Source of the DNA: a virus
Length of the DNA: 64,000 nt
Virus record (IMG/VR): IMGVR_UViG_3300037205_000062
Coordinates: 98,912-162,911 of that record
Strand: one strand, 5' to 3'
This document shows, in pieces, positions 24,236 to 36,995 of this stretch; within the stretch, counting starts at the first letter, position 1, and each line of letters opens with the position of its first letter. The position numbers were made by a program, and so were the translations under genes. The notes below the pieces were generated by a model that had not been told where the DNA came from, did not search any database, and was given only the letters and a program-made list of their open reading frames with translations.

Positions 24236-24240
24236 TTTTC

Positions 24241-24578
24241 GTGACTGAATTAAAACGATACTGTTATCGTTAAAGTTTTAAGCAGGTGAAGAATCTGTTT
24301 AAGTTGCCATGAAATCTTAGTAAATAAGGTAGTCAGAAACTTAGATTGGCCAATCGAAGTCTATGATGTAAGCTATTACTTATAGAACATAACGGATAGC
24401 TTTTTGCTGCGACGGCGGCGAGTGACTGAAATAAAATTGAAAAGATGTAATGCTTGGGCGTAGAAAGGAATCGCCCCGATTTAATTTATCTTTAGACGAG
24501 ATAGGCAAATGTCCTATTTACGAAAAGTGCAGGGAAAGCTACCTAGAAAGCTTGACATGATGGAGAGACATCTTTTCA
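24241..24578 (+). ncRNA. One or two unknown structured RNAs
   Basis: Dense hairpins; TGAAAAGATGT/ACATCTTTTCA closes 24438-24578. Confidence 0.5.
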
Positions 24579-24579
24579 T

Positions 24580-24654
24580 TGTAAGGTATCATAACAGTAA
24601 TGAATTTGCCTGTTAAGCAAAATTATGCAGGGGCGGAACCTGCCCTTACAGCCA
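24580..24654 (+). tRNA. tRNA-Asn(GTT)
   Basis: U1-A72, G73, CCA; T-loop GGCGGAA. Confidence 0.9.
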
Positions 24655-24773
24655 AATCATAAAGATAGTTATCCCTCTTATTTATAAGATTACTCGAAAA
24701 CGAGAAACAAAATAGGTGATGCTTGAGTGGGATTAAAATGGATAATATAGATTAATTTCTGTATTGTTCACTA

Positions 24774-24863
24774 TGCTGCGTGAAGGAAAATAGCCTTGTC
24801 GCCCTCATAAGGCGAATACTGAAAATGCGTATAAGTGGATAAAGACCCGCCGTTCAGCAACCA
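24774..24863 (+). tRNA. Atypical tRNA(CAT) with long variable region and bulged acceptor
   Basis: TGCTG/CAGCA-ACCA; TCGCC-CTCATAA-GGCGA. Confidence 0.65.
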
Positions 24864-24926
24864 TTTAGATAATCCTTGTGCCTTAATAACTTATAGAAAA
24901 ATCGGCAACGGCAAGAATTAAAAAAC

Positions 24927-24998
24927 ACACCCATGTTTAAGTAAACAATTTCGTCTCCAAAACGAAAAATCAAGGAGCGTTACCCTGTGGGTGTGCCA
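24927..24998 (+). tRNA. tRNA-Trp(CCA), small D-loop
   Basis: ACACCCA/TGGGTGT-G-CCA; CTCCAAA loop. Confidence 0.85.
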
Positions 24999-25005
24999 TT
25001 AATTT

Positions 25006-25083
25006 ATATGCGCTAAGTTCGTTTGAACCTTTTAACTTAAATGTTAAATTAGCCTAGACGTTAAACTCGTCTTGCGTATTCCA
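25006..25083 (+). ncRNA. tRNA-like element, anticodon undefined (loop CTTAAATG)
   Basis: ATATGCG/TGCGTAT-T-CCA, T-arm AGACG/CGTCT, two small hairpins. Confidence 0.55.
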
Positions 25084-25087
25084 TTTT

Positions 25088-25161
25088 ACCAAACTCCGAA
25101 AAGCAGTTCTAAGAGAACCACTTAGAGGTTCATCCGATGGTTCGGGATGCGGCTGTTTGGT
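25088..25161 (+). ncRNA. Three-way junction RNA with potential kissing loops
   Basis: ACCAAAC/GTTTGGT; complementary loops GAACCA and TGGTTC. Confidence 0.55.
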
Positions 25162-25177
25162 GATTAATTTAGAAAAT

Positions 25178-25268
25178 GGTCGGTGTCCTCATTGCGAATC
25201 TGTAAAATTCGTCCTTACAACAAAAATGAGAAGTTAGGTCAATGGAGCGTTACCATCACTGACTACCA
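25178..25268 (+). tRNA. Rewired tRNA-Tyr(GTA): D-loop-like segment 3' of anticodon arm
   Basis: Acceptor, A73-CCA, T-arm and CTGTAAA loop intact; CTCATT/AATGAG encloses anticodon arm. Confidence 0.7.
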
Positions 25269-25322
25269 TGTAATTAAAAATATTATAACAATCAGTAAAA
25301 TCTTTTGCCTAATTTATCTAAT

Positions 25323-25410
25323 GGAAGTCGTAAGTATCAGAGTTGATACGACGCACTTGAAATGCGTATGTGCCTACGGGCATGGGGGGCAGAACCTCAC
25401 ACTTCCGCCA
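25323..25410 (+). tRNA. tRNA-Ser(TGA)
   Basis: GGAAG acceptor (one bulge), long variable arm, G73-CCA. Confidence 0.85.
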
Positions 25411-25413
25411 TTT

Positions 25414-25614
25414 ATGACATTAAAAGAAGAAAATCAATGGTTTACTAATCATAAAAACCTTTGTAAATATAGTAGAAAACCAGAAAAAATTGACGAATCT
25501 GTTGCATGTGATTATTGTGGCACAGAAAATACTTATCCTTGGTTAGTTTGTGAAAATCCAAATTGCTATGAAGTTGTAGCATTAGAAAAACAAAGAAGAA
25601 AAAATAATTTCTGA
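25414..25614 (+). CDS. Small zinc-finger protein
   Basis: MTLKEE...CDYC...CENPNC; the upstream part of the tracked ORF is tRNA. Confidence 0.5.
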   Translation: MTLKEENQWFTNHKNLCKYSRKPEKIDESVACDYCGTENTYPWLVCENPNCYEVVALEKQRRKNNF

Positions 25615-25720
25615 CAGGCGGTAAATAAAGGGGTAAAAACATCATAGGTTTAGGCTATTTAGATAGTCAGAATCCTTCCAATTATTTAGGAAGTCCTTGA
25701 AAAATAGCCATTAATTTATT

Positions 25721-25796
25721 GGGGGTGTGGCTCGACAAGCAAGGCACCACGTTTGCAACGTGTTTTATGCAGGAGCGATACCTGTCACCTCCACCA
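25721..25796 (+). tRNA. tRNA-Ala(TGC)
   Basis: G3:U70, ACCA. Confidence 0.9.
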
Positions 25797-25798
25797 TT

Positions 25799-25910
25799 TT
25801 TGATAAGATTTGACGCGTGGACTACTTCGTAAGATGATAAAGTCCGAAGCTGGAAACGGCGAGAAGCCTGTTAAAACCAAAAGAGAGATACTTTTGTGTC
25901 CCTTATCAAA
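25799..25910 (+). ncRNA. Unknown structured RNA
   Basis: TTTGATAAG/CTTATCAAA closing stem; GGACT/AGTCC; GCTG-GAAA-CGGC; CAAAAG/CTTTTG. Confidence 0.5.
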
Positions 25911-25918
25911 TTTTTAAT

Positions 25919-25992
25919 TCCCGTTTCGTATAGAAGCATTACCTGCGCCTTTGGAGCGTAAGAAGGTGGAGCGTTACCATCAACGGGAGCCA
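25919..25992 (+). tRNA. tRNA-Gln(TTG)
   Basis: U1-A72, CTTTGGA loop, CCA. Confidence 0.88.
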
Positions 25993-26031
25993 AAAGATTT
26001 ATTTAGCATTAAAAATTTGTCAACATAAGTT

Positions 26032-26110
26032 GGGATATAGTCCGAAGTAGTCGAGGTACTTTCCTGTCACGAAAGAAATCTAACGGATGCGAGTTCCGTA
26101 TATCCCGCCA
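26032..26110 (+). tRNA. tRNA-Asp(GTC)
   Basis: CTGTCAC loop, G73-CCA. Confidence 0.88.
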
Positions 26111-26122
26111 ATTTAAATATAT

Positions 26123-26199
26123 GGACGTATAACTCAATTAGATAGAGTATCAGCTTGCGAAGCTGAAAGTTGAAAGTGCAAATCTTTCTACGTCCACCA
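26123..26199 (+). tRNA. tRNA-Arg(GCG)
   Basis: TCAGC-TTGCGAA-GCTGA. Confidence 0.88.
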
Positions 26200-26219
26200 A
26201 GGCTTTATTGCCTTTGTTT

Positions 26220-26270
26220 TTCAATTCATAAACAAAATTGAATGGTGGAGGCGGCGGGAAACCGTCGCCC
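26220..26270 (+). ncRNA. Two-hairpin element containing 18 nt antisense to a host-type tmRNA 3' end
   Basis: 26243-26260 is the reverse complement of TTCCCGCCGCCTCCACCA; caged in GGCGGCGG-GAAA-CCGTCGCC. Confidence 0.55.
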
Positions 26271-26286
26271 TTTAAATTTATTTAAT

Positions 26287-26362
26287 GGTATATATCCTCT
26301 ATGTAGTAAGAGCGCGGCCTGTGAAGCCGCCAAAACGAATGCAAGTTTCGTTATATACCCCA
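26287..26362 (+). tRNA. tRNA-His(GTG)
   Basis: G-1:C73, CTGTGAA loop. Confidence 0.9.
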
Positions 26363-26367
26363 ATTTT

Positions 26368-26451
26368 GGCCTCGTGACCTATTTGAGAATAGAACATCAT
26401 ACGGATTTAAACCCCGTGGTTTTGAAGGTGCAAGTCCTTTCGAGGCTACCA
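26368..26451 (+). tRNA. Atypical tRNA-Leu(TAA) without long variable arm
   Basis: TTTAAAC loop on ACGG/CCGT; acceptor identical to Ile(GAT); expanded D region. Confidence 0.6.
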
Positions 26452-26627
26452 TTTTTATTGATTATTTCTAAATAACTTAGAAAATTGGATTGATAAAAAC
26501 AAAATCTATGTTAGAAATTACAAGAAGTTTTGGATTAAAAAGTTCCAATTCAATTCGTAAATGGTGTCAATTATACCAAATAGATTATAAATCTCTTTCT
26601 CCATTTTCTTATAAGAAAAATTTTAAT

Positions 26628-26711
26628 GCGCTTATGTTGTAATAGAAGCCAAGCTGCGTTTAGACCGCAGTGGAGAAATCCGTGGGGGTGCAAGTCCCTC
26701 TAGGCGCACCA
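26628..26711 (+). tRNA. tRNA-Leu(TAG)
   Basis: Class II cloverleaf. Confidence 0.9.
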
Positions 26712-26713
26712 TT

Positions 26714-26827
26714 AGATTAGATCATATTAATGGTATTCGTAACGACAATAGACTAGAAAATCTTAGATTTTTATGTCCCAACTGCCATAGTCAAACACAA
26801 ACCTTCGGTTCTAAAAAAAGAATTTAA
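26714..26827 (+). pseudogene. HNH homing endonuclease remnant
   Basis: RLDHINGIRNDNRLENLRFLCPNCHSQTQTF, no start. Confidence 0.8.
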
Positions 26828-26828
26828 T

Positions 26829-26904
26829 GGCCCGTAGTAACAACAGCATGTTTGCCTCCTTTACACGGAGAATCGAGCAAGGGCAGCACTTGCACGGGCT
26901 ACCA
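26829..26904 (+). tRNA. tRNA-Val(TAC)
   Basis: TTTACAC loop, ACCA. Confidence 0.85.
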
Positions 26905-26949
26905 TTTTAATCTTGACATTACAATAAGAATCCACTAATATAGTTATAT

Positions 26950-27026
26950 CGGAATGTAGCGTAGGCTGGTAACGCGTCTGCTTTGGGAGCAGAAGATCGT
27001 GAGTCCGAATCTCACCATTCCGACCA
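26950..27026 (+). tRNA. tRNA-Pro(TGG)
   Basis: C1-G72, GG D-loop; TTGACA promoter just upstream. Confidence 0.92.
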
Positions 27027-27281
27027 TGTATGTTTGAAAAGTATATTACTCATATTTTTGAGAATAATGAGGAAGCAGAAAATGAATCAGCAAAAATTAT
27101 TCATTCAACAGCTAGTAGTATTAGAGGATGGGAACAGTATCAATCTTTTTTAAAAGATAAAAAAGAAAACGATACATTAGTTTGGTTTGATTATAGTTAT
27201 CCAATGGCTTCCAGAAAAGGATTGGGTATTCTAAGAAACGGTAAAATAATTTCTCATTGTATTTTTATAATGAGTTGATAC

Positions 27282-27370
27282 GGCTTCAAGATGTAAAGTG
27301 CATGGGGGGACTTATAATCCCTATAATCGGCAGATTGCCGTTCTGGACGGTGCAATTCCGTATGAAGCTA
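27282..27370 (+). tRNA. tRNA-Ile(TAT) with long variable arm, CCA not encoded
   Basis: GGGGA-CTTATAA-TCCCT; GGCA-GAT-TGCC arm. Confidence 0.75.
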
Positions 27371-27384
27371 CTAATGGTTTTAAT

Positions 27385-27460
27385 GGCCTCGTAACTCAAT
27401 TAGCAGAGTGTTCACCTGATTAGTGAAATGTTGGGGGTGCAAGTCCCTTCGAGGCTACCA
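27385..27460 (+). tRNA. tRNA-Ile(GAT), U37
   Basis: TTCAC-CTGATTA-GTGAA. Confidence 0.88.
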
Positions 27461-27475
27461 TTAAATATTTTTAAT

Positions 27476-27613
27476 ATGGACGAAACGATTACTATTTCCA
27501 AAGAAGAATATGAGGAACTTTTAGAAGATGCTAAATTCATGCGTGCATTAGAAGCCGCAGGAGTAGATAATTGGGAAGGATACGAATACGCCCAAGATTT
27601 ATTGGGAAAATAA
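27476..27613 (+). CDS. Small phage protein with GVDNWEGY motif
   Basis: MDETITISKEEY...ALEAAGVDNWEGY. Confidence 0.65.
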   Translation: MDETITISKEEYEELLEDAKFMRALEAAGVDNWEGYEYAQDLLGK

Positions 27614-27619
27614 TTTAAT

Positions 27620-27695
27620 GTTGCCGAATACAAAGAGACGAGTAAGTAGTCCTTCAAACTACTCCTAGCAGGTGCGAGTCCTGTCGGCAATACCA
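27620..27695 (+). tRNA. tRNA-Glu(TTC), C33
   Basis: GTAGT-CCTTCAA-ACTAC. Confidence 0.8.
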
Positions 27696-27700
27696 TTTAT

Positions 27701-27775
27701 GCATATGTAACTCAGAGGCAGAGTATTGCACTTCCAATGCAAAGGTCGAGATTTCAAAATTCTCCATATGCTCCA
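27701..27775 (+). tRNA. tRNA-Gly(TCC), canonical elbow
   Basis: GG D-loop, TTC T-loop. Confidence 0.92.
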
Positions 27776-27876
27776 ATTTCCAAGACGGAATCGTTTCTGG
27801 CGTTGCCAGACTAGAAATAGCTAAGTTACAATGTTTCGGTTTTAAAGACAAAATAACTACACCTGTCCTTGGAAAT
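27776..27876 (+). ncRNA. Unknown structured RNA filling the Gly-Thr spacer
   Basis: ATTTCCAAG/CTTGGAAAT; TCTGGC/GCCAGA; AGTTA/TAACT. Confidence 0.5.
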
Positions 27877-27880
27877 ATTT

Positions 27881-27955
27881 GCTTCGTAAGCATAAAAAGT
27901 GATGCACTTGATTTGTATCCAAGATAAGCCAGAGCGTTACTGGCACGAAGCTCCA
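27881..27955 (+). tRNA. tRNA-Thr(TGT)
   Basis: Cloverleaf, CCA. Confidence 0.88.
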
Positions 27956-28032
27956 ATTTTTTTAGTTTTAAAAAAACAATTAATTTTCAAATAATACTTG
28001 ACACAATTTTAAATATTTGTTAATCTTTAAAT

Positions 28033-28470
28033 ATGACTAAAGTATCTATTGAAGCTGTTTTGGAGGGTTTGAAGCGGGCGGGAGTAGCAGCCAAAGAAGT
28101 TGGAGTAACATTGAATTATTTGGAAAAGGTTGCTCAAGAAGAACAAGCTCAAAAGGACGCTGAAAAGCTTCCGACTCAAAAAAATGAATATGGTGTTATT
28201 TTATTTGATGTAGATGGAGTAATATCTGGAAAAGATTTTTCAGCAGTTGTTTACCAAATTCCGCAGGGTGATGACCATGGTTTAGTTTTGGGCAAAATTT
28301 CGGAATCTATACGAGAACAAATGGCAGCAGCAAAACGTAAAAAATTTACAATTGATACACTTGGCGCGGCAATTCAAAGCTTAAAGCGTAAGTTTATTAA
28401 AGATAAAAATGTTAATTTGAAGACTAAAAATCCCGTGAGAGTATTGATAAGTAATAATAAATTAGTTTAA
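28033..28470 (+). CDS. Hypothetical protein
   Basis: ORF behind TTGACA promoter. Confidence 0.55.
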   Translation: MTKVSIEAVLEGLKRAGVAAKEVGVTLNYLEKVAQEEQAQKDAEKLPTQKNEYGVILFDVDGVISGKDFSAVVYQIPQGDDHGLVLGKISESIREQMAAAKRKKFTIDTLGAAIQSLKRKFIKDKNVNLKTKNPVRVLISNNKLV

Positions 28471-28505
28471 TATGCAAACATGAAGATAGAAGAATAATAA
28501 TTTAA

Positions 28506-28582
28506 GCGTTCGTAGCTAAAATAGCCAAAGCATTCGGCTTTTAACCGAAATAGTGTGGGCGCAAGTCCCACCGAGCGCACCA
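28506..28582 (+). tRNA. tRNA-Lys(TTT)
   Basis: CTTTTAA loop. Confidence 0.9.
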
Positions 28583-28604
28583 TTTTGTTAAAAGTTTTTA
28601 ATTT

Positions 28605-28678
28605 GCGCTACAAGCATTAAAATGATGCAAAAGGTTCTTACCCTTTAGAACACGGCGTATTACCGTGGTGGCGCACCA
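28605..28678 (+). tRNA. tRNA-Lys(CTT)
   Basis: TTCTTAC loop; T-loop CGTATTA. Confidence 0.85.
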
Positions 28679-28851
28679 ATCTAATTTAGTAACCTCACCA
28701 GCTATCGCGCTTGGTCAAGAAAAAATAATACTTGTGGTGTCGCAAGGAGGCGAAGTAATTTTATGGAAATAAAAACAATAGACAATTTAATTATTGATAC
28801 TCATAAAGAAAACTATATTAACGCAGAAATGATTGAGTTAATGGAAAAATC

Positions 28852-29151
28852 ATGAAAATTAAAACTATCAATGGAGAGACTGTAGATACTGTTAAATTGG
28901 CAGATTTGAAATCTCAATTTATTGAAACAATGGAATCAAATGCCATAGTAGATTTTTCAAAGAAATTTGGTGCGTCATTTTTTTTATTTGGAAGATGTCA
29001 AGATGAAGGTTGGGTAAAATTTAATATACCTAATGAAAAAGAATTCAATTTTTTATTAATGGCGATAAATGAATACGTTGATACACAATCTGGCGGTAAA
29101 TATCATTTGGAAATGGTTCCGAATAATATTGAGCCAACGGAAGAAATATGA
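28852..29151 (+). CDS. Hypothetical protein, paralog of 20235-20561
   Basis: INGETVDTVKLAD...SGGK. Confidence 0.55.
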   Translation: MKIKTINGETVDTVKLADLKSQFIETMESNAIVDFSKKFGASFFLFGRCQDEGWVKFNIPNEKEFNFLLMAINEYVDTQSGGKYHLEMVPNNIEPTEEI

Positions 29152-29379
29152 AATTTTATGTTAAAGCAATTGGTCCGAATAGATATTCTGGTGGAAGTTG
29201 TAATTGGCTATTAATAAGAGAAATAAAAAGAGAAAATGATAGTTTAGTTATAAAAATTAAAACTAAATGGGGTATTAAATATATTTCTTGTAGTTTAGAT
29301 ATGGTAACTCCAAATTTAATTTTTAAGAATGAACTAAATGGATTTGAAAATTTTAAAAATATTTGCGATAAATTTAAAT

Positions 29380-29455
29380 GACTACTAAACTAATCAAGTG
29401 AAAGTGCAATTCTGAAAAAATTGAAAGTCGTGAGCGTTACACGAAGTAGTCACCA
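29380..29455 (+). tRNA. tRNA-Phe(GAA)
   Basis: CAATT-CTGAAAA-AATTG. Confidence 0.85.
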
Positions 29456-29459
29456 GATT

Positions 29460-29552
29460 GGAAGATACACGAATAGTTAGGTTTTCGTAGAAATTTGCTA
29501 AATTTCCGTTCCCGAAAGGGGACTGTCGGGGCGGCACCGACATCTTCCGCCA
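29460..29552 (+). tRNA. tRNA-Ser(GCT)
   Basis: Long variable arm, G73-CCA. Confidence 0.9.
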
Positions 29553-29639
29553 ATAAACAAAAATGAAATATGATTATCAAAATCAAATTTAATTTAAAAG
29601 ATAAAGTGTTAATCAAAGAACGTAAGTGTAATAATCTAC

Positions 29640-30371
29640 ATGGCTCAATGTCGTCAATGTAAAGCGAAACTTAATGCTCATGTAAATTATTGGCATCAGG
29701 AATTGACTCCTACCGATAATCAAAATAGTAGAGAGGATATTTCTAAAGCTTTACCTAGTTGGGCTAGTGAAATGGCCGCATTTTGTAGCGCCAAATGTCT
29801 TTCAAGTTATCTTCAAGGTCAAGGTCAATCTGTAGCCAAATTAGATGGTACGCCTTCTGGGACTGGTATTGTTGATCTTTTGCGCGAACCTTTTAAATAT
29901 ACTAATATAACAAAACAAGAATTGGATAGAAGAGGTTTTAATGCTCTTCAAAATAAAAAAGTAGTTAATGATATAACGGAAGATAGAAAAATAGTCAATC
30001 AAACCTATGACAAAAAAGGCGCAAAAAATGATGGAAATAAGGGGGATTTAAGAAGTCAAGTAGGTTTAGCTACGCCAGAAGAAGACGCCAGCCAAAAACC
30101 AGTTTTTGATAAATTAAAACAACTTAAGGATAAAGAAAATATGGAAACTCAAGCAAAAACAACAAAAACTTGTGATAATTGTAAATGCGTTCTTGATGCT
30201 AAAGAAGATAAAGGGGAAATGATTAAGGCTACACTAAACGACCATTCAACACAAAAAAATAAGCAATATGATCTTTGCAGCGAGGAGTGTCTTCGTCAAA
30301 TGTTAAACGGAAGAAGTAAAAAGAAAAAATCTAAAGCCAGTATTATTGAATTAGATATGTCTATCGAATAA
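29640..30371 (+). CDS. Protein with two TRASH/MYM-like Cys zinc-binding units
   Basis: CRQC...FCSAKC and CDNC...LCSEEC; GTGTAAT promoter. Confidence 0.6.
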   Translation: MAQCRQCKAKLNAHVNYWHQELTPTDNQNSREDISKALPSWASEMAAFCSAKCLSSYLQGQGQSVAKLDGTPSGTGIVDLLREPFKYTNITKQELDRRGFNALQNKKVVNDITEDRKIVNQTYDKKGAKNDGNKGDLRSQVGLATPEEDASQKPVFDKLKQLKDKENMETQAKTTKTCDNCKCVLDAKEDKGEMIKATLNDHSTQKNKQYDLCSEECLRQMLNGRSKKKKSKASIIELDMSIE

Positions 30372-30419
30372 AATTATAAAAATATCTATTTTTTTGTGTA
30401 ATTACTTTTATAATAATTT

Positions 30420-30994
30420 ATGAATACTTCAAATGCTAAACATTGCGTAGCTTGTGATGAATGCGGGGCTAGTCTTGGTGAACTTTATCCTAATGACCAT
30501 AATAATATCTCTGTACAATTGAGTGATATGGGTAAACATCATGCTGGTGATAGCGAAACTGCTTACCATAACCCAGAAAAATCTCTTAGTTCTAAAAAAA
30601 CATTTCATTTTTGTGATGAAAGTTGTATGGCTTCCAATCTAAATAAGCGCGCCAAAGCTAAAGCTAAGATGTCTAAGATGTCTAAGGCGAATGTTGTTGA
30701 TTATCAAGGTAATATAGAAGTAGATATGACTGATTACCTAAAAAAAAAGAGTTTGAGTTAAGCGAAGCGGCCTATATATCAACTCATGAAAGAAGTAAGT
30801 TGGGTGAGGAACATTTTTTAGACAAAAAGCGTCGTTCTTTTCCCATTAGACCAGGTCATGAATGTACTGATTTGAACGCTGCACTTCATAGAATTGGAAC
30901 ATATAAAGGTGAATTAAGTCACGAAGAACTTCATAGTAAAATTTTAAGTCGTATGAAATCTCATGGCTGCCCTTTACCCAAAAGCGATAAATAA
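30420..30994 (+). CDS. TRASH-like zinc protein probably joined by -1 frameshift (A9G at 30740-30749) to downstream domain
   Basis: Frame 0 ends at 30761; -1 frame open from the A-run to 30994 with no ATG before the domain. Confidence 0.5.
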
Positions 30995-31009
30995 ACATTT
31001 TATAAAATT

Positions 31010-31312
31010 ATGAAAAAAACTCTATTTACTACGGTATCTTTAATGGCGTTAACTGTTTGTGCTTTCGGACAAACAAATAACATCACGCCCGTGATTGTAA
31101 CCGACTTTCCATCTGCTATTAGCGCCGCATTTCATTTTGTTAACATAAACGTTAATCCAACCTTACTAATTTTAGTTCTACACTTGTTAGGTAAATATTA
31201 TACTAATTATCATCTTGCTGATAAATTTTCTCACGAAATTAATTGGTTTGGTAAACTTGCTAGTGTAGTTGCTTTAATTCCTATTAAACAAATATCCCCA
31301 TCATCTAAGTAA
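31010..31312 (+). CDS. Secreted/membrane protein
   Basis: Signal peptide MKKTLF...AFG, hydrophobic segments. Confidence 0.55.
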   Translation: MKKTLFTTVSLMALTVCAFGQTNNITPVIVTDFPSAISAAFHFVNINVNPTLLILVLHLLGKYYTNYHLADKFSHEINWFGKLASVVALIPIKQISPSSK

Positions 31313-31600
31313 TTGTATATATGTCATATACTACTGGTACATTACCATATTTAGAAAGTAGAATGCATCAGCTATCTCAAAATAGTGGAGATTTAAATAG
31401 TTATGCGTTAGAAGCTCAAAATAATTATACATTAACTCCATCGCATGCTGATAAATTAAACAAAGAATTTCATAAAATAATGTTATCAGTTCATAATGTA
31501 GTCGAAACTGGAAAACACTTTTAAAATTTAAGCCATCCGAAAGGGTGGTGACGATTACATAAACGATAATCCTCAAGGGTTGTCGCTTTTTCTCATTGTT

Positions 31601-31669
31601 GCCAGTGACGTTAAGAACGACCAAATCTTCATAAGATTTAGGGAGACGGGGCAGAACCGACCATTGGCA
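31601..31669 (+). tRNA. Degenerate tRNA(CAT) (Met or Ile2), no CCA
   Basis: GCCAGTG/CATTGGC, AAATC-TTCATAA-GATTT, 3-nt D-loop. Confidence 0.6.
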
Positions 31670-31673
31670 GTAT

Positions 31674-31768
31674 TTTACATAGTGACAAACGAAGATGCTA
31701 CCTACCATTATTGTAAGTCGTTTAAGTACGTTGATATTGGTTAGAACGGTGTGCAATTTCTATGTAAA
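31674..31768 (+). ncRNA. Unknown structured RNA
   Basis: TTTACATAG/CTATGTAAA closing stem; AAACGA/TCGTTT. Confidence 0.4.
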
Positions 31769-31772
31769 TAAT

Positions 31773-31845
31773 GGGGTTATAGAATAATAGTTAATTCGCT
31801 AATTTCTCGAATTAGTTATCGTGAGTGCGATTCTCCGTAACCCTT
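31773..31845 (+). tRNA. tRNA-Glu(CTC), copy 1 (bulged T-stem, no CCA)
   Basis: CTAAT-TTCTCGA-ATTAG. Confidence 0.7.
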
Positions 31846-31847
31846 CT

Positions 31848-31932
31848 TGCGCAATGGCGTAATTACAAGCCGCGCCAGTTTCAAACTCTGGTGTTGAAAA
31901 ACGTGTGGGTGGAAGTCCCTCTTGCGCAACCA
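31848..31932 (+). tRNA. tRNA-Leu(CAA), copy 1
   Basis: Class II; C19-G56. Confidence 0.8.
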
Positions 31933-32243
31933 ATTTCTTCTTGACAATATTCTAAAGATAGCATAATATTTGTTATGCCTTACATTAAACCAGAAAATAG
32001 AAACAAATATACAAGTTCAATCAATAATTTAGTTAATTTGTTGACTAATGATGGTTGCGAAGCTGACGTAGGAGAAATTAACTACGTTATCTCTTCTGTT
32101 ATTTGGAAGTTATTTAAAAATAAACGTAGATATAAAACTGGTAATGATTTAATGGGCGTTTTGGAATGCGTTAAACAGGAATTTTATAGACGGCAATTGG
32201 CCGAACTAGAAAATGAAAAAATTAAAGAAAATGGAGATATTTT

Positions 32244-32762
32244 ATGAAGGTAATTAATCTTTTCGCAGAAGCGGGAGCGGGTAAATCTACTACTGCTGCT
32301 GGTCTATTTTTCTTAATGAAGTGTGCGGGCTACCATGTTGAATTAGCAACTGAATATGCTAAAGATTTAGTACATGAAGAACGTACAAAAACTTTTAATG
32401 ATCAGTTGTATATTACTGCAAAACAAAATCACAAACTATTTTTATTAAATAATAAATATGATTATGCCATTACTGATTCTCCATTGTTATTGGGCTTAGT
32501 TTATAGACAAGATGATTGTGTATCATATTTTGATGATTTAGTATTTCAATTATTTAATTCATATGAGAATGTAAATATTCTTTTAACTCGATCAAAACCT
32601 TATAAACAAATTGGCAGAAATCAAACAGAAGAGGAATCTAAAAAAATCAGAGAAAATATACTTCAAATGTTAAATTATTATAATTTGGATTATTATTCAG
32701 TTGTAGCTGACGATAAAGCGCCACATGAAATTTTTTACAGATTAAAACTTGACAAATTTTAA
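32244..32762 (+). CDS. P-loop kinase/ATPase (AAA_28, NadR-like)
   Basis: INLFAEAGAGKST, EYAK, ITDSP, GRNQ. Confidence 0.75.
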   Translation: MKVINLFAEAGAGKSTTAAGLFFLMKCAGYHVELATEYAKDLVHEERTKTFNDQLYITAKQNHKLFLLNNKYDYAITDSPLLLGLVYRQDDCVSYFDDLVFQLFNSYENVNILLTRSKPYKQIGRNQTEEESKKIRENILQMLNYYNLDYYSVVADDKAPHEIFYRLKLDKF

Positions 32763-33048
32763 AACCTATTTTACATTTGATTATTAATAAATAATTTATG
32801 AATTTTGATCAATGGTATTTCAATTTTGATGAAACTAACAGGGTGGCAACGGCGCAAGATGGTTGGAATGCCTGTAAAAAAGAAATTATTAAAATAATAG
32901 CCAAACACGAAAAGGAGACTTATTGGATTACTTTAGATTGGAAAGAACAAGATTGGATTAAAAAAATAAAAGAGTTGTGAAAAAAGATTCTTTTTATTAC
33001 GATGGTAGATAAGTTTACTTAACTGGCGAAAGCCAAGAAAGGAGAATA

Positions 33049-33453
33049 ATGGAAAAATATTATGAATGTATTGGAATAGTAAATTATTCTGATAAAGATG
33101 GTTGGATAACTATGACCCTTCCCCAATCTTTATCTAATTATTATTCTTGGTGGGTTAAGAGATTTATTTGGAAAGGTGTTTCTACTCCGCTATACGGTTG
33201 TCATTGCACCATTTTACCAGCAAAACACAACGGAGATTTTCGCAAACATTCAGCGTGGAAAAAACATCAAGGAGAAAAAGTAAAAGTAATATATGAGTCT
33301 AAAATATATACTGATAATGATTGGTTTTTTATGGGGCGCTATTTTTGGTTGAGAATCCAAACAGATATTGTTGGGCAAATAAGAGGAGAATTTGGTTTGC
33401 CAAAAGAATTATATTGGCCGTTGCACGCTACTATTGGTTATTGTCAACAATGA
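33049..33453 (+). CDS. 2H phosphoesterase-like protein
   Basis: Two HxT motifs (HCTI, HATIG) about 75 aa apart. Confidence 0.6.
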   Translation: MEKYYECIGIVNYSDKDGWITMTLPQSLSNYYSWWVKRFIWKGVSTPLYGCHCTILPAKHNGDFRKHSAWKKHQGEKVKVIYESKIYTDNDWFFMGRYFWLRIQTDIVGQIRGEFGLPKELYWPLHATIGYCQQ

Positions 33454-33744
33454 TAAATTGTATATTTGTATTATGAAAGAAATTAAAATTCCCATGAATG
33501 ATTATATAGAAAGACAAAAAGATATAAATTTTCTGTTAAGCTTTTCGTGTGATATTATAGCAAGTTATTCTTTATTAAAAGATTATGATGTTAGACATGT
33601 GGCTTGGGCGATAGATAGATTATTTGGTTATAATCCATCGCTAGAAGAACAAAAAGAAATTTGTAAACCCAATAAAAATGTAAAAGTCCCCAAATATGAT
33701 TTACTGACAGAGGGTTATGACCCTAATAAATTGCCAAAATAAAT

Positions 33745-33831
33745 GCTTATATGGCGAAATAGAAAACGCATAACGTCGAGAGCGTTACACCCGTAAGGGG
33801 TTTGCAAGTGCAAGTCTTGCTATAAGCACCA
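33745..33831 (+). tRNA. tRNA-Leu(GAG), C33
   Basis: TAACG-TCGAGAG-CGTTA, long variable arm. Confidence 0.85.
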
Positions 33832-33880
33832 TTTGCAAAGAATGTTGGGAAAAAGATTTTAAAGATTTAGAATAAATATT

Positions 33881-33956
33881 GGGGTTATCGTCTAATTAGA
33901 TAGGACTAGAGTTTCTCGAACTTTGAATTTGGTTGCAAATACCAATAACCCCTCCA
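33881..33956 (+). tRNA. tRNA-Glu(CTC), copy 2
   Basis: AGAGT-TTCTCGA-ACTTT, CCA. Confidence 0.85.
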
Positions 33957-33959
33957 AAT

Positions 33960-34044
33960 AGCCAAATGGCGTAATTACAAGCCGCGCTAAACTCAAAATT
34001 TAGTGTCGAAAGACGTGAGAGTGGAAATCTCTCTTTGGCTACCA
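33960..34044 (+). tRNA. tRNA-Leu(CAA), copy 2
   Basis: CTAAA-CTCAAAA-TTTAG. Confidence 0.88.
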
Positions 34045-34049
34045 TTTAT

Positions 34050-34559
34050 ATGTCTTTTCAATCTGCTACCCCTCAAGGCCCAAATAATACTATGACAGAT
34101 GTTTGGATTACTCCTCAATGGATTATAGATAAAATTGGCGTATCTGACCTTGATCCTTGCGGATGGTTGCCAAATGGAACCCCTATAATTCAAACCGCTT
34201 ACAATTATTTTACAGAAAAAGATAATGGATTAATACAAGATTGGTCAAAATATAAAAGTGTTTTTGTTAATTTTCCTTATTCACAAAGTTATGAATGGCT
34301 TGAAAAATGTAAAATAGAATCAAATAAAGGATGCGAAATTATAGTTTTGTGTTTTGTCAGATCAGAGACTCGTGCTTGGCAACAAAATATTAAAAATGCC
34401 ACGGGTATTAATTTAATAAATAAAAGAATTAAATTTTTAACTCACGAAGGGATAGAAAAGGGAAATGGAAATTGCCCAAGTTGTTTGATAGCATGGGGAG
34501 AAAACTCCTTTAATAGAATTAAAAAAGTTGATGGGATTTATTTAAAACTTGACAAATAA
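34050..34559 (+). CDS. Phage DNA N6-adenine methyltransferase
   Basis: W.TP, DLDPC, DNGL..DW, VFVNFPYS, RSET..W. Confidence 0.8.
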   Translation: MSFQSATPQGPNNTMTDVWITPQWIIDKIGVSDLDPCGWLPNGTPIIQTAYNYFTEKDNGLIQDWSKYKSVFVNFPYSQSYEWLEKCKIESNKGCEIIVLCFVRSETRAWQQNIKNATGINLINKRIKFLTHEGIEKGNGNCPSCLIAWGENSFNRIKKVDGIYLKLDK

Positions 34560-34562
34560 TAA

Positions 34563-34832
34563 TTTGCTTCTAAAACAGCTATTAGAGATAGTATTAAATA
34601 TCCTTGGCGCGTAGATTGGAATAAAGAATTATCTATGAAAGTTATGCGTTATGCTTTAGACTATAAATTTAAAAAAGGTACAGATTGGTATAGAAAGTTA
34701 AAATTAACTGAAAATTGGGAAATAATAGAGTGGAATAATTGGCATGATGTTTGGTGGGGTAAAGATATTAAAACGCGTAAAGGCGAAAATCATCTTGGAA
34801 AGATATTAATGGAAATAAGAGATAAGACTTGA
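34563..34832 (+). pseudogene. N-terminally truncated NADAR-family gene
   Basis: R.DW...MKVM...L..KF, E.NNWHDVWWG, GENHLGKILMEIR. Confidence 0.65.
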
Positions 34833-35035
34833 ACGGCTTGATAATAATGAAAAAAATTCCAATTAAAGATTGTAATGGAAAAATGATTTATGAAGGTGAT
34901 TTAGTTGAAATAGACGGTAAAATTCACAAAGCTTTATTTTTTAATGAGAATGATTTTTGGTTCTATAAAGATGGCGCTGGATGGATTTATGACTTGGGAA
35001 AATATAAAATAAAATTATGGGGCAAGTCTTTATAA
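34829..35035 (+). CDS. YopX-like protein
   Basis: KDCNGKMIYEGD. Confidence 0.55.
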   Translation: MNGLIIMKKIPIKDCNGKMIYEGDLVEIDGKIHKALFFNENDFWFYKDGAGWIYDLGKYKIKLWGKSL

Positions 35036-35046
35036 ATTAAAAAATT

Positions 35047-35325
35047 ATGACAACCGTAGTGAATATTAAGAATGGTAATAAATATGATGTTTATTGTGGA
35101 CGAGGCAGTATATTTGGAAATCCATATGAAATAGGGAAAGATGGAACAAGAGAACAAGTCATAGAACGTTATAAAATTTGGTTTAATTTCTTATTAAAAG
35201 ATAAATTTTTTGTAAACGAATTATTAAAACTTAATGGTAGAACTTTGGGCTGTTTTTGCGTGCCACAAAAATGTCATTGTGAAATAATAAAGGAATGGCT
35301 TGACAATCCCAAAAACTTTAAATAG
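35047..35325 (+). CDS. DUF4326-family protein
   Basis: DVYCGRGSIFGNPY, LGCFC.P..CH. Confidence 0.8.
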   Translation: MTTVVNIKNGNKYDVYCGRGSIFGNPYEIGKDGTREQVIERYKIWFNFLLKDKFFVNELLKLNGRTLGCFCVPQKCHCEIIKEWLDNPKNFK

Positions 35326-35988
35326 TATATAAATATGACCTATGCTTTTAGAAAATGGTGATTATTATTGGCAGGGAAACGAGGAAGAATGCAATGATTG
35401 TCATGAAAAATATCCTATGATGTGGATGATAATGTGTGATTTTGGTATAATAAGATGTTTTGATTGTTGGCAAAAAAACGAAGAGTATGAAAGAAAAAAA
35501 ATTTAAAATACTTAAGTATTATAAAACTTTTCGAGAGTGGTCAAACGAAGGATATAGTATAAACAAGGGAAGCAAGGCGACGTGGGTAAATAATATACCA
35601 AAATTCAGTCGCTCGCAGGTTACTAAAAGATTTAGTAATAGTAGACGTTATTCTATTTGGGAAAATTATGATCCGCGAGATGGTGATGCGGATTTTGAAA
35701 ATGGTTATAGTGACGAAGAAATGGGTTTTGATATAAATGATTTTGGAGATAATTAAAATATGAAAAAGAAATTTTATAAAACAGTTCCATGCGATTGTAA
35801 TGAATGTAAATCGTCTCGTTCTATTGGTGGAAATTCTGGTACTAAAAAAATAGAAGTTAAACCACATTCTTGTTTCGAGAATTCGCGAGTTACCAAATGC
35901 GATGGGGGAGCAAAAGATGAACGCACTTGTAATATATGTGGGAAAGTTTGGGAATGTTCTTGTAATTTTGATGATGATTTTGATTAAT

Positions 35989-36064
35989 GGTGTCGTGGTC
36001 GAGTAGCTAAGACAGCGGATTGCAAACCCGTTATTCCTTGGTGCAAATCCAAGCGATACCTCCA
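35989..36064 (+). tRNA. tRNA-Cys(GCA)
   Basis: U73-CCA. Confidence 0.9.
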
Positions 36065-36190
36065 TTTTAAGTACGATTTTATTAAATTGAATAGTGTAAG
36101 TATTATTGATGGATTGGCCCGCAATAATTACTTTCATAATAATAGCAACAATTTTAATTGGTTGGTCTATTTTTATTTTGAAATGATAAT

Positions 36191-36266
36191 GGGCATATAA
36201 CTCAAATAGATAGAGTCCTCCCTTCTAAGGAGCGAGATTCGGGTGCAATTCCTGATATGCCTACCA
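36191..36266 (+). tRNA. tRNA-Arg(TCT)
   Basis: CTTCTAA loop, AGATA D-loop. Confidence 0.88.
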
Positions 36267-36394
36267 TTTGTAACATGACACAAAAAGAAAAAAATGCTTT
36301 ATTAAAGATTGTAAAGGAACTGGAAAAACTTAAATAACGAGACAACTTTAATGTTGGTTTCACGCTATTAGCGTGAATGTGTAATAATTAGTGT

Positions 36395-36733
36395 ATGATT
36401 TCCTTAATCAAACACTATTATCACAAGTTAACTAAAAAAATTAGCGAGCCAAAACGTTCTGACAAATGGCCAACAGTTAGAAAACATCATTTAGAAAAAG
36501 AAGGTTGGTGTAAATTTTGTGGTGGGACAGAAGGTTTACAAGTACATCATTGCGAACCGTTTCATATTGATCCTGCAAAAGAATTAGACCCAACAAATTT
36601 AATTACATTATGTGAATTAATGGACAAAGAATGTCATTTACATATAGGACATTTAGGTAATTGGAAAAACTTTAATCCAAAAGTAAGAGAACAAGCTAAT
36701 TCTCCTAAAGTTGGGACGCCAGCTTCTAAATAA
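36395..36733 (+). CDS. HNH endonuclease
   Basis: CKFCG...VHH...NLITLC...CH; GTGTAAT promoter. Confidence 0.8.
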   Translation: MISLIKHYYHKLTKKISEPKRSDKWPTVRKHHLEKEGWCKFCGGTEGLQVHHCEPFHIDPAKELDPTNLITLCELMDKECHLHIGHLGNWKNFNPKVREQANSPKVGTPASK

Positions 36734-36743
36734 TTTATTATTT

Positions 36744-36820
36744 GTTCGTATATCGGTCTAGCTTCCTAAGCCTGATACCGTAGATAGATAAGGTGGGTGC
36801 AAATCCCTCTGCGAACTCCA
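36744..36820 (+). tRNA. Rewired tRNA-Arg(CCT): D-loop-like segment 3' of anticodon arm
   Basis: GTTCGTA/TGCGAAC-T-CCA; TTCCTAA loop; TAGATAGATA before T-arm. Confidence 0.65.
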
Positions 36821-36894
36821 TGCTCTATGGTGTAGTAGGAACACGTTTGACTCTGAATCAAATATCTTGGGTGCAAATCCTAATAGAGCAACCA
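36821..36894 (+). tRNA. tRNA-Gln(CTG)
   Basis: CTCTGAA loop, U1-A72. Confidence 0.9.
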
Positions 36895-36921
36895 AAATAG
36901 TTAATAGAAGATAGATTGTAT

Positions 36922-36995
36922 GCCTTGTTAGTTTAACAGAAAAACGTATCATCGGTAATGATAAAACGTAAGGGCAGCACTTACACTTGGCTCCA
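36922..36995 (+). tRNA. tRNA-Thr(GGT), C33, two U-U mismatches in acceptor
   Basis: TATCA-TCGGTAA-TGATA. Confidence 0.8.

What the first reader, a model, noticed from the sequence alone, without database searches (positions are those of the whole stretch)
36744..36820. Second rewired tRNA (Arg-CCU) keeps the Arg D-loop in the relocated position
Seen: acceptor GTTCGTA is followed directly by one long irregular hairpin (CGGT...TTCCTAA...ACCG, or TATCGG/CTGATA), then TAGATAGATA, the T-arm (TGCAAAT loop) and T-CCA. The moved segment matches the D-loops of this phage's normal Arg tRNAs (AATTAGATA, AAATAGATA), including the A corresponding to the ArgRS identity base A20 and the AG that partners G55-C56. 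It abuts tRNA-Gln with no spacer. An independent second case supports a real tRNA class.
Basis: partly seen in the sequence, partly recalled or inferred. Interest (0 to 1): 0.85.

Follow-up and report, generated by a model that had tools for sequence, protein, structure and literature searches.

The report
Rewired phage arginine tRNA gene
This 77-base phage gene is very probably an arginine tRNA whose D-arm is split around the anticodon arm instead of forming its own hairpin; it belongs to a widespread, unannotated phage family that departs from the textbook cloverleaf.

Summary
The element at 36744-36820 is real. It has a 7-bp acceptor stem, a T-arm, a UUCCUAA loop and an encoded CCA, but no D hairpin. 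ARAGORN misses it and Rfam's tRNA model gives 17.7 bits (cut-off 29).

It is not a one-off. Two pattern scans of IMG/VR gave 31 distinct genes with the same order of parts: acceptor, UAU, strand X, anticodon arm, strand X', D-loop motif, T-arm. All carry arginine anticodons. X/X' is paired in 96% of cells, with double changes at all three pairs.

A covariance model built from those 31, without the candidate, hits it at 40 bits (E about 1e-7). That is 20 bits above every other sequence in the window. Cultured Streptomyces and crAss-like phages carry confirmed unannotated members.

Related phages have an ordinary tRNA-Arg(CCU) at this spot. Here that gene and the upstream gene were replaced; the upstream gene is now an HNH endonuclease. 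The relocated loop reads AG, as expected beside this phage's G55 T-loops.

The weak point is an anticodon stem with two internal mismatches. Expression and charging are untested.

Other agents of this scan reported the same family on other DNA. I found no paper describing it.

The parts
36744..36750 (+). Acceptor stem, 5' strand (GTTCGTA)
   Evidence: Pairs 7/7 with 36810-36816. Aligned to the acceptor of model R1.
36751..36753 (+). Linker UAU (U8, A9 and one more U)
   Evidence: T8 and A9 are invariant and T10 nearly invariant in the 31-member family alignment. The candidate has the same three bases.
36754..36757 (+). Strand X of the split D-stem (CGG, plus T)
   Evidence: Pairs with CCG 36778-36780; T 36757 can pair with A 36777. 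The family helix at columns 11-13/40-42 is 96.4% paired, with double changes at all 3 pairs.
36758..36774 (+). Anticodon arm: CTAGC, loop TTCCTAA (anticodon CCT at 36765-36767), GCCTG
   Evidence: The loop is identical to that of the ordinary tRNA-Arg(CCT) in relatives L008, L013 and L014. The stem has only 3 of 5 pairs, with U-U and A-C mismatches in the middle. It is the only one of 92 tRNA-like genes of this clade with fewer than 4 pairs.
36775..36777 (+). Short linker ATA, in the place of the family's (U/A)GAAA bulge
   Evidence: R1 alignment. Family member L108 has the same lengths: TAA between the anticodon stem and X'.
36778..36780 (+). Strand X' of the split D-stem (CCG)
   Evidence: Complement of 36754-36756. 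Covariation in the family.
36781..36792 (+). Relocated D-loop segment TAGATAGATAAG. By alignment to the family: A18 36786, G19 36787, A20 36788, A21 36790.
   Evidence: R1 aligns it to the family's UAAUUGGAUACAU. The 8-mer TAGATAGA is shared with the D-arms of the Arg(GCG) and Arg(TCT) tRNAs of this phage. AG instead of GG fits the local rule for G55 T-loops.
36793..36809 (+). T-arm GTGGG TGCAAAT CCCTC
   Evidence: The T-loop is identical to that of four other tRNAs of the array. The stem, with its U-U mismatch, also occurs in Leu tRNAs of the clade.
36810..36820 (+). Acceptor 3' strand TGCGAAC, discriminator T (36817) and encoded CCA (36818-36820)
   Evidence: The next base, 36821, is the first of tRNA-Gln(CTG).
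36395..36733 (+). HNH endonuclease gene directly upstream, part of the segment that replaced an acetyltransferase gene plus the ordinary tRNA-Arg(CCT)
   Evidence: Pfam HNH. Relatives have an acetyltransferase gene here. blastn homology to relatives stops at the ends of tRNA-Arg(TCT) and tRNA-Gln.

Best explanation
Window 36744-36820 encodes a tRNA-Arg(CCU) of a non-cloverleaf design.

Proposed fold:
- The acceptor stem stacks on the T-arm as usual.
- There is no D hairpin. One strand of the D-stem (CGG) lies before the anticodon arm and the other (CCG) after it, so the anticodon arm is nested inside the D-stem and forms one long hairpin with it.
- The D-loop nucleotides follow the second strand and run straight into the T-stem. 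From there they can still meet the T-loop at the elbow (A18-G19 with G55-C56) and present A20 to arginyl-tRNA synthetase.
- The RNA is therefore a three-way junction that can keep the L shape with a different strand path.

It would be cut out of the polycistronic tRNA array by RNase P. Its CCA end is released by the RNase P cut that makes the 5' end of tRNA-Gln, which starts at the next base.

The gene belongs to a large family of phage arginine tRNAs with this layout. In this phage lineage it replaced an ordinary tRNA-Arg(CCU), together with the upstream gene, which is now an HNH endonuclease.

Shown: the anatomy, family membership, covariation in the family, and the replacement at a syntenic site. 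Inferred: the 3D fold, expression, charging with arginine, and reading of AGG.
For: 1. tRNA hallmarks. It has a 7/7 acceptor stem, a family-typical T-arm, NCCA and a UUCCUAA loop.

2. Same layout in other phages. There are 31 distinct IMG/VR sequences and cultured phages with this layout. The helix X/X' was not part of any search pattern. It is 96.4% paired, with AU/CG/GC/UA exchanges at all three pairs. The whole structure is 94.5% paired, against 62.5% in shuffles and 38-44% when partners are slid.

3. Anticodons. All are arginine: TCT 14, ACG 11, CCT 3, TCG 2. The second pattern did not fix the anticodon.

4. Model test. R1, built without the candidate, scores it 40.0 bits (E about 1e-7, full length). 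The next best in the window is 19.8 bits, and it is the only hit in the 163-kb record. Rfam's cloverleaf model gives 17.7 bits.

5. Geometry. It equals family member L108 segment for segment: TAT-X3-T-5-7-5-3-X'3-T-loop.

6. Elbow rule. The relocated loop has AG, not GG, as do 80 of 99 tRNAs with G55 T-loops in this clade. Members from other phages pair GG with U55.

7. Synteny. Relatives L008, L009/L010 and L013 carry an ordinary tRNA-Arg(CCT) at the same place, just 5' of tRNA-Gln(CTG). No other CCT tRNA is present in the record.

8. Arginine identity. A20, C35 and U36 are present, and U73 is listed among bacterial arginine determinants (PMC9976931). Seven of 30 family members also have U73.

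9. Energy. The gap between the family fold and the computed minimum is 3.8-4.1 kcal/mol. The family median is 4.7.
Against: - The anticodon stem has only 3 of 5 pairs, with adjacent U-U and A-C mismatches. It is the only one of 92 tRNA-like genes of this clade below 4 pairs. In the family the four loop-proximal pairs are 99% paired.
- The R1 score of 40 bits is well below the 68-86 bits of the cultured-phage members.
- All available copies are 100% identical, so this sequence itself carries no covariation or polymorphism evidence.
- AGG is rare in this phage (2.65 per 1000 codons), and the neighbouring tRNA-Arg(UCU) could read it. Loss of function would therefore be tolerated.
- There are no data on expression or charging.
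Confidence: 0.62

Rival explanations
1. It is a decaying, non-functional member of the rewired tRNA-Arg family. The gene came in with, or was left behind by, the HNH-associated replacement. It keeps the parts that have not yet mutated but no longer works in decoding.
For: - The anticodon stem has two adjacent internal mismatches, unique among 92 tRNA-like genes of the clade.
- The model score is lower than for other members.
- AGG is rare and tRNA-Arg(UCU) lies 480 bp upstream.
- tRNA remnants do persist in related arrays, such as a 3' half after tRNA-His at L021:5089-5144.
- The rewired form is seen in only one phage population of this clade.
Against: - The acceptor stem is perfect, the X/X' helix is intact, CCA is encoded, and the anticodon loop is intact with U33 and A37.
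- The D-loop follows the clade-specific A18/G55 rule. That points to evolution under selection inside this type of phage rather than recent arrival and decay.
- The gene is packed tightly between an ORF and tRNA-Gln.
Confidence: 0.25
2. It is a tRNA-shaped RNA with a role other than decoding. Examples are a decoy for a host nuclease that attacks tRNA, or a processing signal that defines the 3' end of the HNH message and the 5' end of tRNA-Gln.
For: - The acceptor/T-arm minihelix and CCA, which RNase P and the CCA enzyme need, are perfect, while the anticodon stem is weak.
- Phage tRNAs are known to counter tRNA-cleaving defences (PMC10264068, PMC11555353, PMC11464382; listed).
Against: - The anticodon loop is exactly that of working orthologues.
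- Family anticodons are restricted to arginine and vary among arginine isoacceptors. That fits decoding rather than a generic decoy or signal.
- The other tRNAs of the array already provide processing sites.
Confidence: 0.09
3. The resemblance to the rewired family is accidental. The element is an ordinary tRNA-Arg(CCT) gene scrambled by a local rearrangement, unrelated to the family.
For: - Total length (77) equals that of the orthologue.
- Relative to the orthologue, about 13 nt are missing before the anticodon arm and about 13 nt are extra after it.
- The upstream gene was replaced.
Against: - A random rearrangement would not reproduce the family's segment lengths, the UAU linker, the X/X' complement and the loop position well enough to score 40 bits (E about 1e-7) with a model built from other phages.
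- The acceptor and T stems differ from the orthologues by compensated changes.
Confidence: 0.04

Closest known systems
Ordinary class I bacterial and phage tRNA-Arg(CCU) (Rfam RF00005), for example the orthologous genes L013:974-1050, L009:7415-7492 and L008:6574-6650 of related phages
   Same: Acceptor stem, T-arm, CCA, the anticodon loop UUCCUAA, a D-loop motif with A20, total length 77 nt, and position directly 5' of tRNA-Gln(CUG).
   Different: There is no D hairpin between the acceptor and the anticodon arm. The D-stem strands flank the anticodon arm, the D-loop lies after it, and there is no separate variable loop. The junction is three-way instead of four-way. RF00005 scores 17.7 bits against 43-67 for the array's ordinary tRNAs.
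Unannotated rewired tRNA-Arg genes of cultured phages: Streptomyces phages Stanimal and Yaboi (OP021680.1 91430-91506) and TomSawyer; also a tRNA-Ile(GAU) form in Kehishuvirus sp. 'tikkala' (OQ198717.1, about 95577-95653)
   Same: Same order of parts and same X/X' helix. The Streptomyces genes also carry CCU. All are missed by ARAGORN and left unannotated.
   Different: Those have GG in the loop with a UUC T-loop, perfect anticodon stems and a UGAAA bulge. The candidate has AG with a UGC T-loop, two stem mismatches and a 3-nt AUA linker. It scores 40 bits against their 68-86.
D-arm-lacking mitochondrial tRNAs of animals (such as mt tRNA-Ser(AGY) and nematode mt tRNAs; review PMC4394434)
   Same: No D hairpin at the usual place; a tRNA that departs from the cloverleaf.
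   Different: Mitochondrial forms have lost the D-arm and usually the elbow nucleotides, and work with adapted partners. Here both D-stem strands and the D-loop motif are kept but connected in another order, in a virus of bacteria. ARAGORN's mitochondrial mode finds nothing sensible.
Circularly permuted tRNA genes of the red alga Cyanidioschyzon merolae (PMC3728597)
   Same: The order of tRNA segments in the gene differs from the standard order.
   Different: There the 3' half precedes the 5' half, and processing through a circular intermediate restores an ordinary cloverleaf. Here the ends are in normal order and only the inner segments are re-threaded, so the mature RNA itself would be non-cloverleaf.
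Allo-tRNAs and other bacterial tRNAs with unusual cloverleaves (8/4 or 9/3 acceptor/T geometry; recalled from my own knowledge of Mukai et al. 2017, not checked here)
   Same: Non-standard tRNA structures found by genome mining and missed by standard finders.
   Different: Those keep the four-arm order acceptor, D, anticodon, T. The candidate has the standard 7/5 acceptor/T geometry but a different arm connectivity.

Membership tests
Rewired (split D-stem) phage tRNA-Arg family, defined here by alignment A3 and model R1 | 7-bp acceptor stem with the T-arm directly 5' of its 3' strand | tested here: met
   7/7 acceptor pairs and 4/5 T-stem pairs; aligned full length by R1.
Rewired (split D-stem) phage tRNA-Arg family, defined here by alignment A3 and model R1 | After a UAU linker, a 3-bp strand X whose partner X' lies 3' of the anticodon arm | tested here: met
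   CGG 36754-36756 pairs with CCG 36778-36780. In the family this helix is 96.4% paired with double changes at all 3 pairs.
Rewired (split D-stem) phage tRNA-Arg family, defined here by alignment A3 and model R1 | A D-loop motif (R18 G19 A20 U A21) between X' and the T-stem | tested here: met
   UAGAUAGAUA is aligned to UAAUUGGAUA by R1. G18 is replaced by A, as in this phage's ordinary tRNAs with G55.
Rewired (split D-stem) phage tRNA-Arg family, defined here by alignment A3 and model R1 | An arginine anticodon in a 7-nt loop with U33 | tested here: met
   UUCCUAA, anticodon CCU. The family has TCT, ACG, CCT and TCG only.
Rewired (split D-stem) phage tRNA-Arg family, defined here by alignment A3 and model R1 | Four paired positions next to the anticodon loop | tested here: inconclusive
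   The two pairs next to the loop and the fifth pair form; the two between are U-U and A-C. An alternative register with a bulged C gives 4 pairs at similar energy. The family is 99.2% paired here.
Rewired (split D-stem) phage tRNA-Arg family, defined here by alignment A3 and model R1 | A significant score with a model built without the sequence | tested here: met
   40.0 bits, E about 1e-7; next best in the window 19.8 bits; sole hit in the 163-kb record.
Canonical tRNA (Rfam RF00005, cloverleaf) | A D-arm hairpin between the acceptor stem and the anticodon arm | tested here: not met
   No canonical parse. ARAGORN finds nothing even at lowered thresholds. In Rfam's alignment the D-arm is deleted.
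Canonical tRNA (Rfam RF00005, cloverleaf) | A score at or above the gathering threshold of 29 bits | tested here: not met
   17.7 bits; absent from the 18-kb scan at E up to 10.
D-arm-lacking mitochondrial-type tRNA | D-arm replaced by a short connector, with loss of the elbow nucleotides | tested here: not met
   The D-loop motif and both D-stem strands are present but relocated. ARAGORN's mitochondrial mode gives only implausible calls.
Circularly permuted tRNA gene | [quoted passage not shown] | tested here: not met
   The acceptor 5' strand is first and the acceptor 3' strand with CCA is last.
Working tRNA-Arg (function) | Expressed, processed, charged with arginine, and reading AGG | not testable with these tools
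This needs tRNA sequencing and charging assays.

The most novel reading that the evidence does not exclude
Phages have evolved and spread a second, fully working tRNA architecture. It keeps the L shape but threads the core differently, with the anticodon arm nested in the D-stem and the D-loop behind it. In this phage the design displaced the ordinary tRNA-Arg(CCU) through a cassette swap next to a homing endonuclease. Its relocated D-loop has co-evolved with the clade's unusual G55 T-loop, which would be genetic evidence that the elbow contact survives the rewiring. The design may be favoured because it escapes host enzymes, or the neighbouring endonuclease, that recognise the ordinary gene or RNA.
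Probability: 0.3. Interest if true: 0.9.

Novelty: new variant of a known kind. Interest (0 to 1): 0.8.

Why it matters
The cloverleaf with its fixed arm order is taken as universal for bacterial-type tRNAs. A conserved, covarying family that re-threads the core would show that the L shape can be built in another way. It would also reveal a blind spot in tRNA finders and phage annotation, and give a natural scaffold for orthogonal tRNA design.

This particular gene adds three things:
- A CCU member in a phage clade with G55 T-loops, whose relocated loop follows the local elbow rule.
- A clear case where rewired and ordinary genes occupy the same syntenic site in related phages.
- A member with a weakened anticodon stem, useful for asking what the design tolerates.

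Members exist in cultivable Streptomyces, Microbacterium and Bacteroides phages, so the question can be tested directly.

Tried and rejected
- My first working view was a pseudogene made by the HNH insertion. It rested on four points: ordinary orthologues in relatives, no alignable homology, the weak anticodon stem, and a computed minimum-energy fold that hides the anticodon. The energy argument fell when I found that proven family members show the same or larger gaps. The view as a whole was downgraded once the family and model R1 were in hand.
- Exact-motif scans for close homologues found only chance hits. These were TTCCTAA...TAGATAGATAAG in viral contigs, TAGATAGATAAG...TGCAAAT in metagenome contigs, and the T-arm plus acceptor.
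- blastn of the region against cultured phages found nothing.
- The Macro-domain neighbour as a single query found nothing in IMG/VR. As an alignment it reached only distant phages without tRNA arrays.
- HNH homologues (74% identity) sit in another phage type with no similar tRNA beside them. The HNH next to the TomSawyer member is not homologous to ours. An HNH-plus-tRNA mobile cassette is therefore not supported.
- The identical copies L005-L007 gave no polymorphism.
- ARAGORN in mitochondrial mode gave only junk.
- Moving the segments back in silico makes ARAGORN call a tRNA-Arg(CCT). This is partly true by construction, so I give it little weight.
- The similarity of the acceptor/T-arm to a tRNA-Leu(UAA) of relative L021 (26/32) is not significant once T-arm sharing is allowed for.
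- Searching the whole records of relatives: not held.

Full report
**What is there**

Window 36744-36820 (+) reads GTTCGTA TAT CGGT CTAGC TTCCTAA GCCTG AT ACCG TAGATAGATAAG GTGGG TGCAAAT CCCTC TGCGAAC T CCA.

- The acceptor strands pair 7/7.
- The T-arm has the T-loop TGCAAAT, shared with four other tRNAs of this array.
- The 7-nt loop UUCCUAA carries U33, CCU and A37.
- CCA is encoded, and tRNA-Gln(CTG) starts at the very next base.
- There is no hairpin between the acceptor and the anticodon arm.

ARAGORN misses the element even at lowered thresholds. Rfam's tRNA model gives 17.7 bits against a cut-off of 29 and aligns only the acceptor and T-arm.

**Setting**

The window is part of a 163-kb IMG/VR record (30.8% G+C) of an uncultured phage with no close cultured relative. 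My own scan for an acceptor, T-arm and NCCA finds about 34 tRNA-like genes between 24162 and 36995. All have an encoded CCA and most have G at position 55 of the T-loop. ARAGORN sees only 13 of them and Rfam 15. Of 25 tested with a simple cloverleaf parser, three fail: 25178 (Tyr), 26368 (UAA) and this one.

**Relatives**

I used the Macro-domain protein 0.9 kb downstream to fetch contigs of related phages at 57-68% protein identity.

- In L008, L009/L010 and L013 the place directly 5' of tRNA-Gln(CTG) holds an ordinary 77-78-nt tRNA-Arg(CCT), preceded by an acetyltransferase gene. L014 has one too.
- In our phage the acetyltransferase is replaced by an HNH endonuclease gene (36395-36733) and the tRNA by the odd gene.
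- blastn aligns tRNA-Cys, tRNA-Arg(TCT) and tRNA-Gln to the relatives but nothing in between.

The segment 36270-36820 is therefore a replacement bounded by conserved tRNA genes. Three other assemblies of the same phage are 100% identical, so there is no within-population variation to use.

**First reading, later revised**

From these facts I first leaned towards a rearranged pseudogene. The reasons were:

- The state is derived and lineage-specific.
- The anticodon stem has only 3 of 5 pairs (U-U and A-C in the middle), the only such case among 92 tRNA-like genes of the clade.
- The computed minimum-energy fold (-17.1 kcal/mol) hides the anticodon, while anticodon-presenting folds lie near -12 to -13.
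- AGG is rare at 2.65 per 1000 codons.
- The 8-mer shared with the Arg D-arms has P of only about 0.02-0.05.
- Exact-motif scans for homologues gave only chance hits.

**The family**

Notes of earlier agents of this scan claimed a widespread 'rewired' phage tRNA-Arg family. I treated that as a lead and tested it.

Two patterns that an ordinary tRNA cannot match were run on IMG/VR. One required an Arg(UCU) loop, then GGATA, then a T-loop within 6-9 nt. The other required GGATAYATG..GGTTCRAWT. After filtering for a 7-bp acceptor they gave 31 distinct sequences of 72-80 nt.

All share this order of parts: acceptor, UAU, strand X (3 nt), anticodon arm, a short purine-rich bulge, strand X', U, AAYUGGAUA, about 3 nt, T-arm, acceptor.

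Neither pattern constrained X or X'. Even so, the helix is paired in 96.4% of cells. The pair types are:

| Pair | Types seen |
|---|---|
| First | AU 13, CG 10, GC 5, UA 2 |
| Second | CG 16, UA 5, AU 1 |
| Third | CG 24, GC 3, UA 1 |

The whole structure is 94.5% paired, against 62.5% in shuffles (0 of 500 reach it) and 38-44% when partners are slid by 1-3 columns. The anticodons are TCT 14, ACG 11, CCT 3 and TCG 2, all arginine. This is the signature of a working, evolving tRNA family.

**Membership of the candidate**

- A covariance model (R1) built from the 31 sequences, candidate excluded, hits 36744-36817 full length at 40.0 bits, E about 1e-7. The next best sequence in the 64-kb window scores 19.8 bits.
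- It is the only significant hit in the 163-kb record. No relative of this clade has one.
- The alignment pairs CGG with CCG as X/X' and lays UAGAUAGAUA on the family's UAAUUGGAUA. That gives A18 (36786), G19 (36787), A20 (36788) and A21 (36790).
- The segment lengths equal those of family member L108 (TAT-CGA-T-5-7-5-TAA-TCG-T-loop).

**Cultured phages**

blastn with family members finds the design in at least 40 cultured-phage records, nearly all without annotation at that place.

- R1 scores the Streptomyces phages Stanimal and TomSawyer (both CCU) at 86.5 and 82.3 bits.
- A tRNA-Ile(GAU) form in the crAss-like Kehishuvirus 'tikkala' scores 68.6 bits. It lies in an unannotated gap of a tRNA array.
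- ARAGORN misses all three, and Rfam gives at most 29.9 bits.

**What is special here**

In this clade, tRNAs with G55 have AG rather than GG in the D-loop in 80 of 99 cases. Three of the five tRNAs with a pyrimidine at 55 have GG. The candidate has G55 and its relocated loop reads AG, while the confirmed members from other phages have GG with U55. In the 31 IMG/VR sequences that combination was fixed by the search patterns, so they do not test it.

The relocated loop thus obeys the rule of its own genome. This argues that it still meets the T-loop and that the gene has evolved under selection in this kind of phage.

The discriminator U73 differs from the A73 of the clade's other Arg tRNAs. 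However, U73 occurs in 7 of 30 family members and is listed among bacterial arginine determinants together with A20, C35 and U/G36 (PMC9976931).

The energy argument does not hold either. For the 31 covariation-supported members, the family fold lies a median 4.7 kcal/mol above the computed minimum, and in 17 of them the minimum also closes the anticodon loop. The candidate's gap is 3.8-4.1 kcal/mol.

**How it most likely works**

- The acceptor and T-arm form the usual stacked helix, which is the part that RNase P, the CCA enzyme and EF-Tu bind.
- X/X' plus the anticodon stem form one long hairpin. It stands in for the stacked D and anticodon stems.
- The chain then runs through the D-loop nucleotides into the T-stem.
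- In terms of an ordinary tRNA, the joins 9-10, 21-22 and 48-49 are replaced by 9-22, 44/45-10 and 21-49. All of these lie close together in the core, so the L shape, the elbow and the A20 pocket could be kept.

This three-dimensional reasoning is inference from general knowledge of tRNA structure. Expression, charging and decoding are not shown.

**Rivals**

- A decaying member is the main alternative (about 0.25). It rests on the two anticodon-stem mismatches, the lower model score and the dispensability of a CCU tRNA.
- A non-decoding tRNA-like role is possible (about 0.09).
- Accidental scrambling is unlikely (about 0.04).

**Origin**

The replacement next to an HNH gene recalls homing endonucleases in phage tRNA regions, such as T4 SegB (PMC2330249). 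A rewired member also abuts an HNH gene in TomSawyer. However, the two HNH proteins are unrelated, and the closest homologues of ours have no such tRNA beside them. A joint mobile cassette is therefore not supported, and the link remains a conjecture.

**Novelty**

Four searches of the held literature found no description of a tRNA with this connectivity. The nearest known cases are D-armless mitochondrial tRNAs, permuted tRNA genes of a red alga, and tRNAs with unusual cloverleaves.

The same family has been reported repeatedly by other agents of this scan on other DNA. What I verified myself is the family's existence, the covariation of its helices, its restriction to arginine anticodons in my sample, its presence in cultured phages, and the candidate's membership.

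Noticed in passing
window 25178-25268: A tRNA-Tyr(GTA)-like gene with the same kind of layout. CTCATT and AATGAG (6 bp) enclose the anticodon arm plus 12 nt, followed by AAGTTAGGTCA (like the Ser(GCT) D-loop) and the T-arm. This fold is its computed minimum. Relatives have ordinary class II tRNA-Tyr (L021:3120-3205; L022 about 3672-3757). Model R1 does not hit it.
   Followed up: partly
window 26368-26451 and L014:3512-3595: A non-cloverleaf tRNA with a UAA anticodon and the acceptor stem of tRNA-Ile. GACC after the acceptor can pair with GGTT after the anticodon arm. It is conserved in a distant relative, with compensating changes in the acceptor stem and in all five anticodon-stem pairs, so it is probably functional. 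Other relatives have an ordinary tRNA-Leu(UAA) at this place.
   Followed up: partly
window 27282-27372; L021:6275-6367; L022:5912-6004: A conserved tRNA with anticodon UAU (Ile, AUA) and a long variable arm like a class II tRNA. The copy in the window ends ACTA instead of ACCA. Neither ARAGORN nor Rfam calls it.
   Followed up: no
window 24162-36995: About 34 tRNA-like genes with encoded CCA, of which standard finders see 13-15. Most T-loops read NGC (G55) and their D-loops AG instead of GG (80 of 99 in this clade), which suggests a remodelled elbow across the array.
   Followed up: partly
window 25006-25083: A tRNA-like gene with a 4-nt D-loop (GTTC GTTT GAAC), T-loop TTAAACT and an anticodon region (TTTAAC TTAAAT GTTAAA) that gives a 6- or 8-nt loop. 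Relatives have tRNA-Met genes with a similar small D-loop (L021:2654-2727, L008:3065-3136).
   Followed up: no
L021:5089-5144: A T-arm plus acceptor 3' strand and CCA with no matching 5' half, directly after tRNA-His. It looks like a leftover tRNA 3' half in a related phage.
   Followed up: no
L208 (OQ198717.1, Kehishuvirus sp. 'tikkala') 595-671: A rewired-layout gene with anticodon GAU (Ile) in an unannotated gap between tRNA-Trp and tRNA-Met of a cultured crAss-like phage (68.6 bits with R1). The design is therefore not limited to arginine.
   Followed up: partly
L210 (MN369750.1, Streptomyces phage TomSawyer) 594-670: The annotated HNH endonuclease CDS (locus 171-635) overlaps the first 42 nt of a rewired tRNA-Arg(CCU) gene that is not annotated. 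Related records annotate 'hypothetical protein' or 'endonuclease VII' over the same place.
   Followed up: no
L034:101-176 and L037:403-478: An unrelated lake phage that carries the closest homologue of the window's HNH gene also has a tRNA with anticodon CUA (an amber suppressor, called tRNA-Pyl by ARAGORN) and an IS605-type TnpA/TnpB pair next to the HNH gene.
   Followed up: no
L021:8603-9340: A related phage encodes a 245-aa protein with an alanyl-tRNA synthetase second-domain match (PF01411) inside its tRNA array.
   Followed up: no
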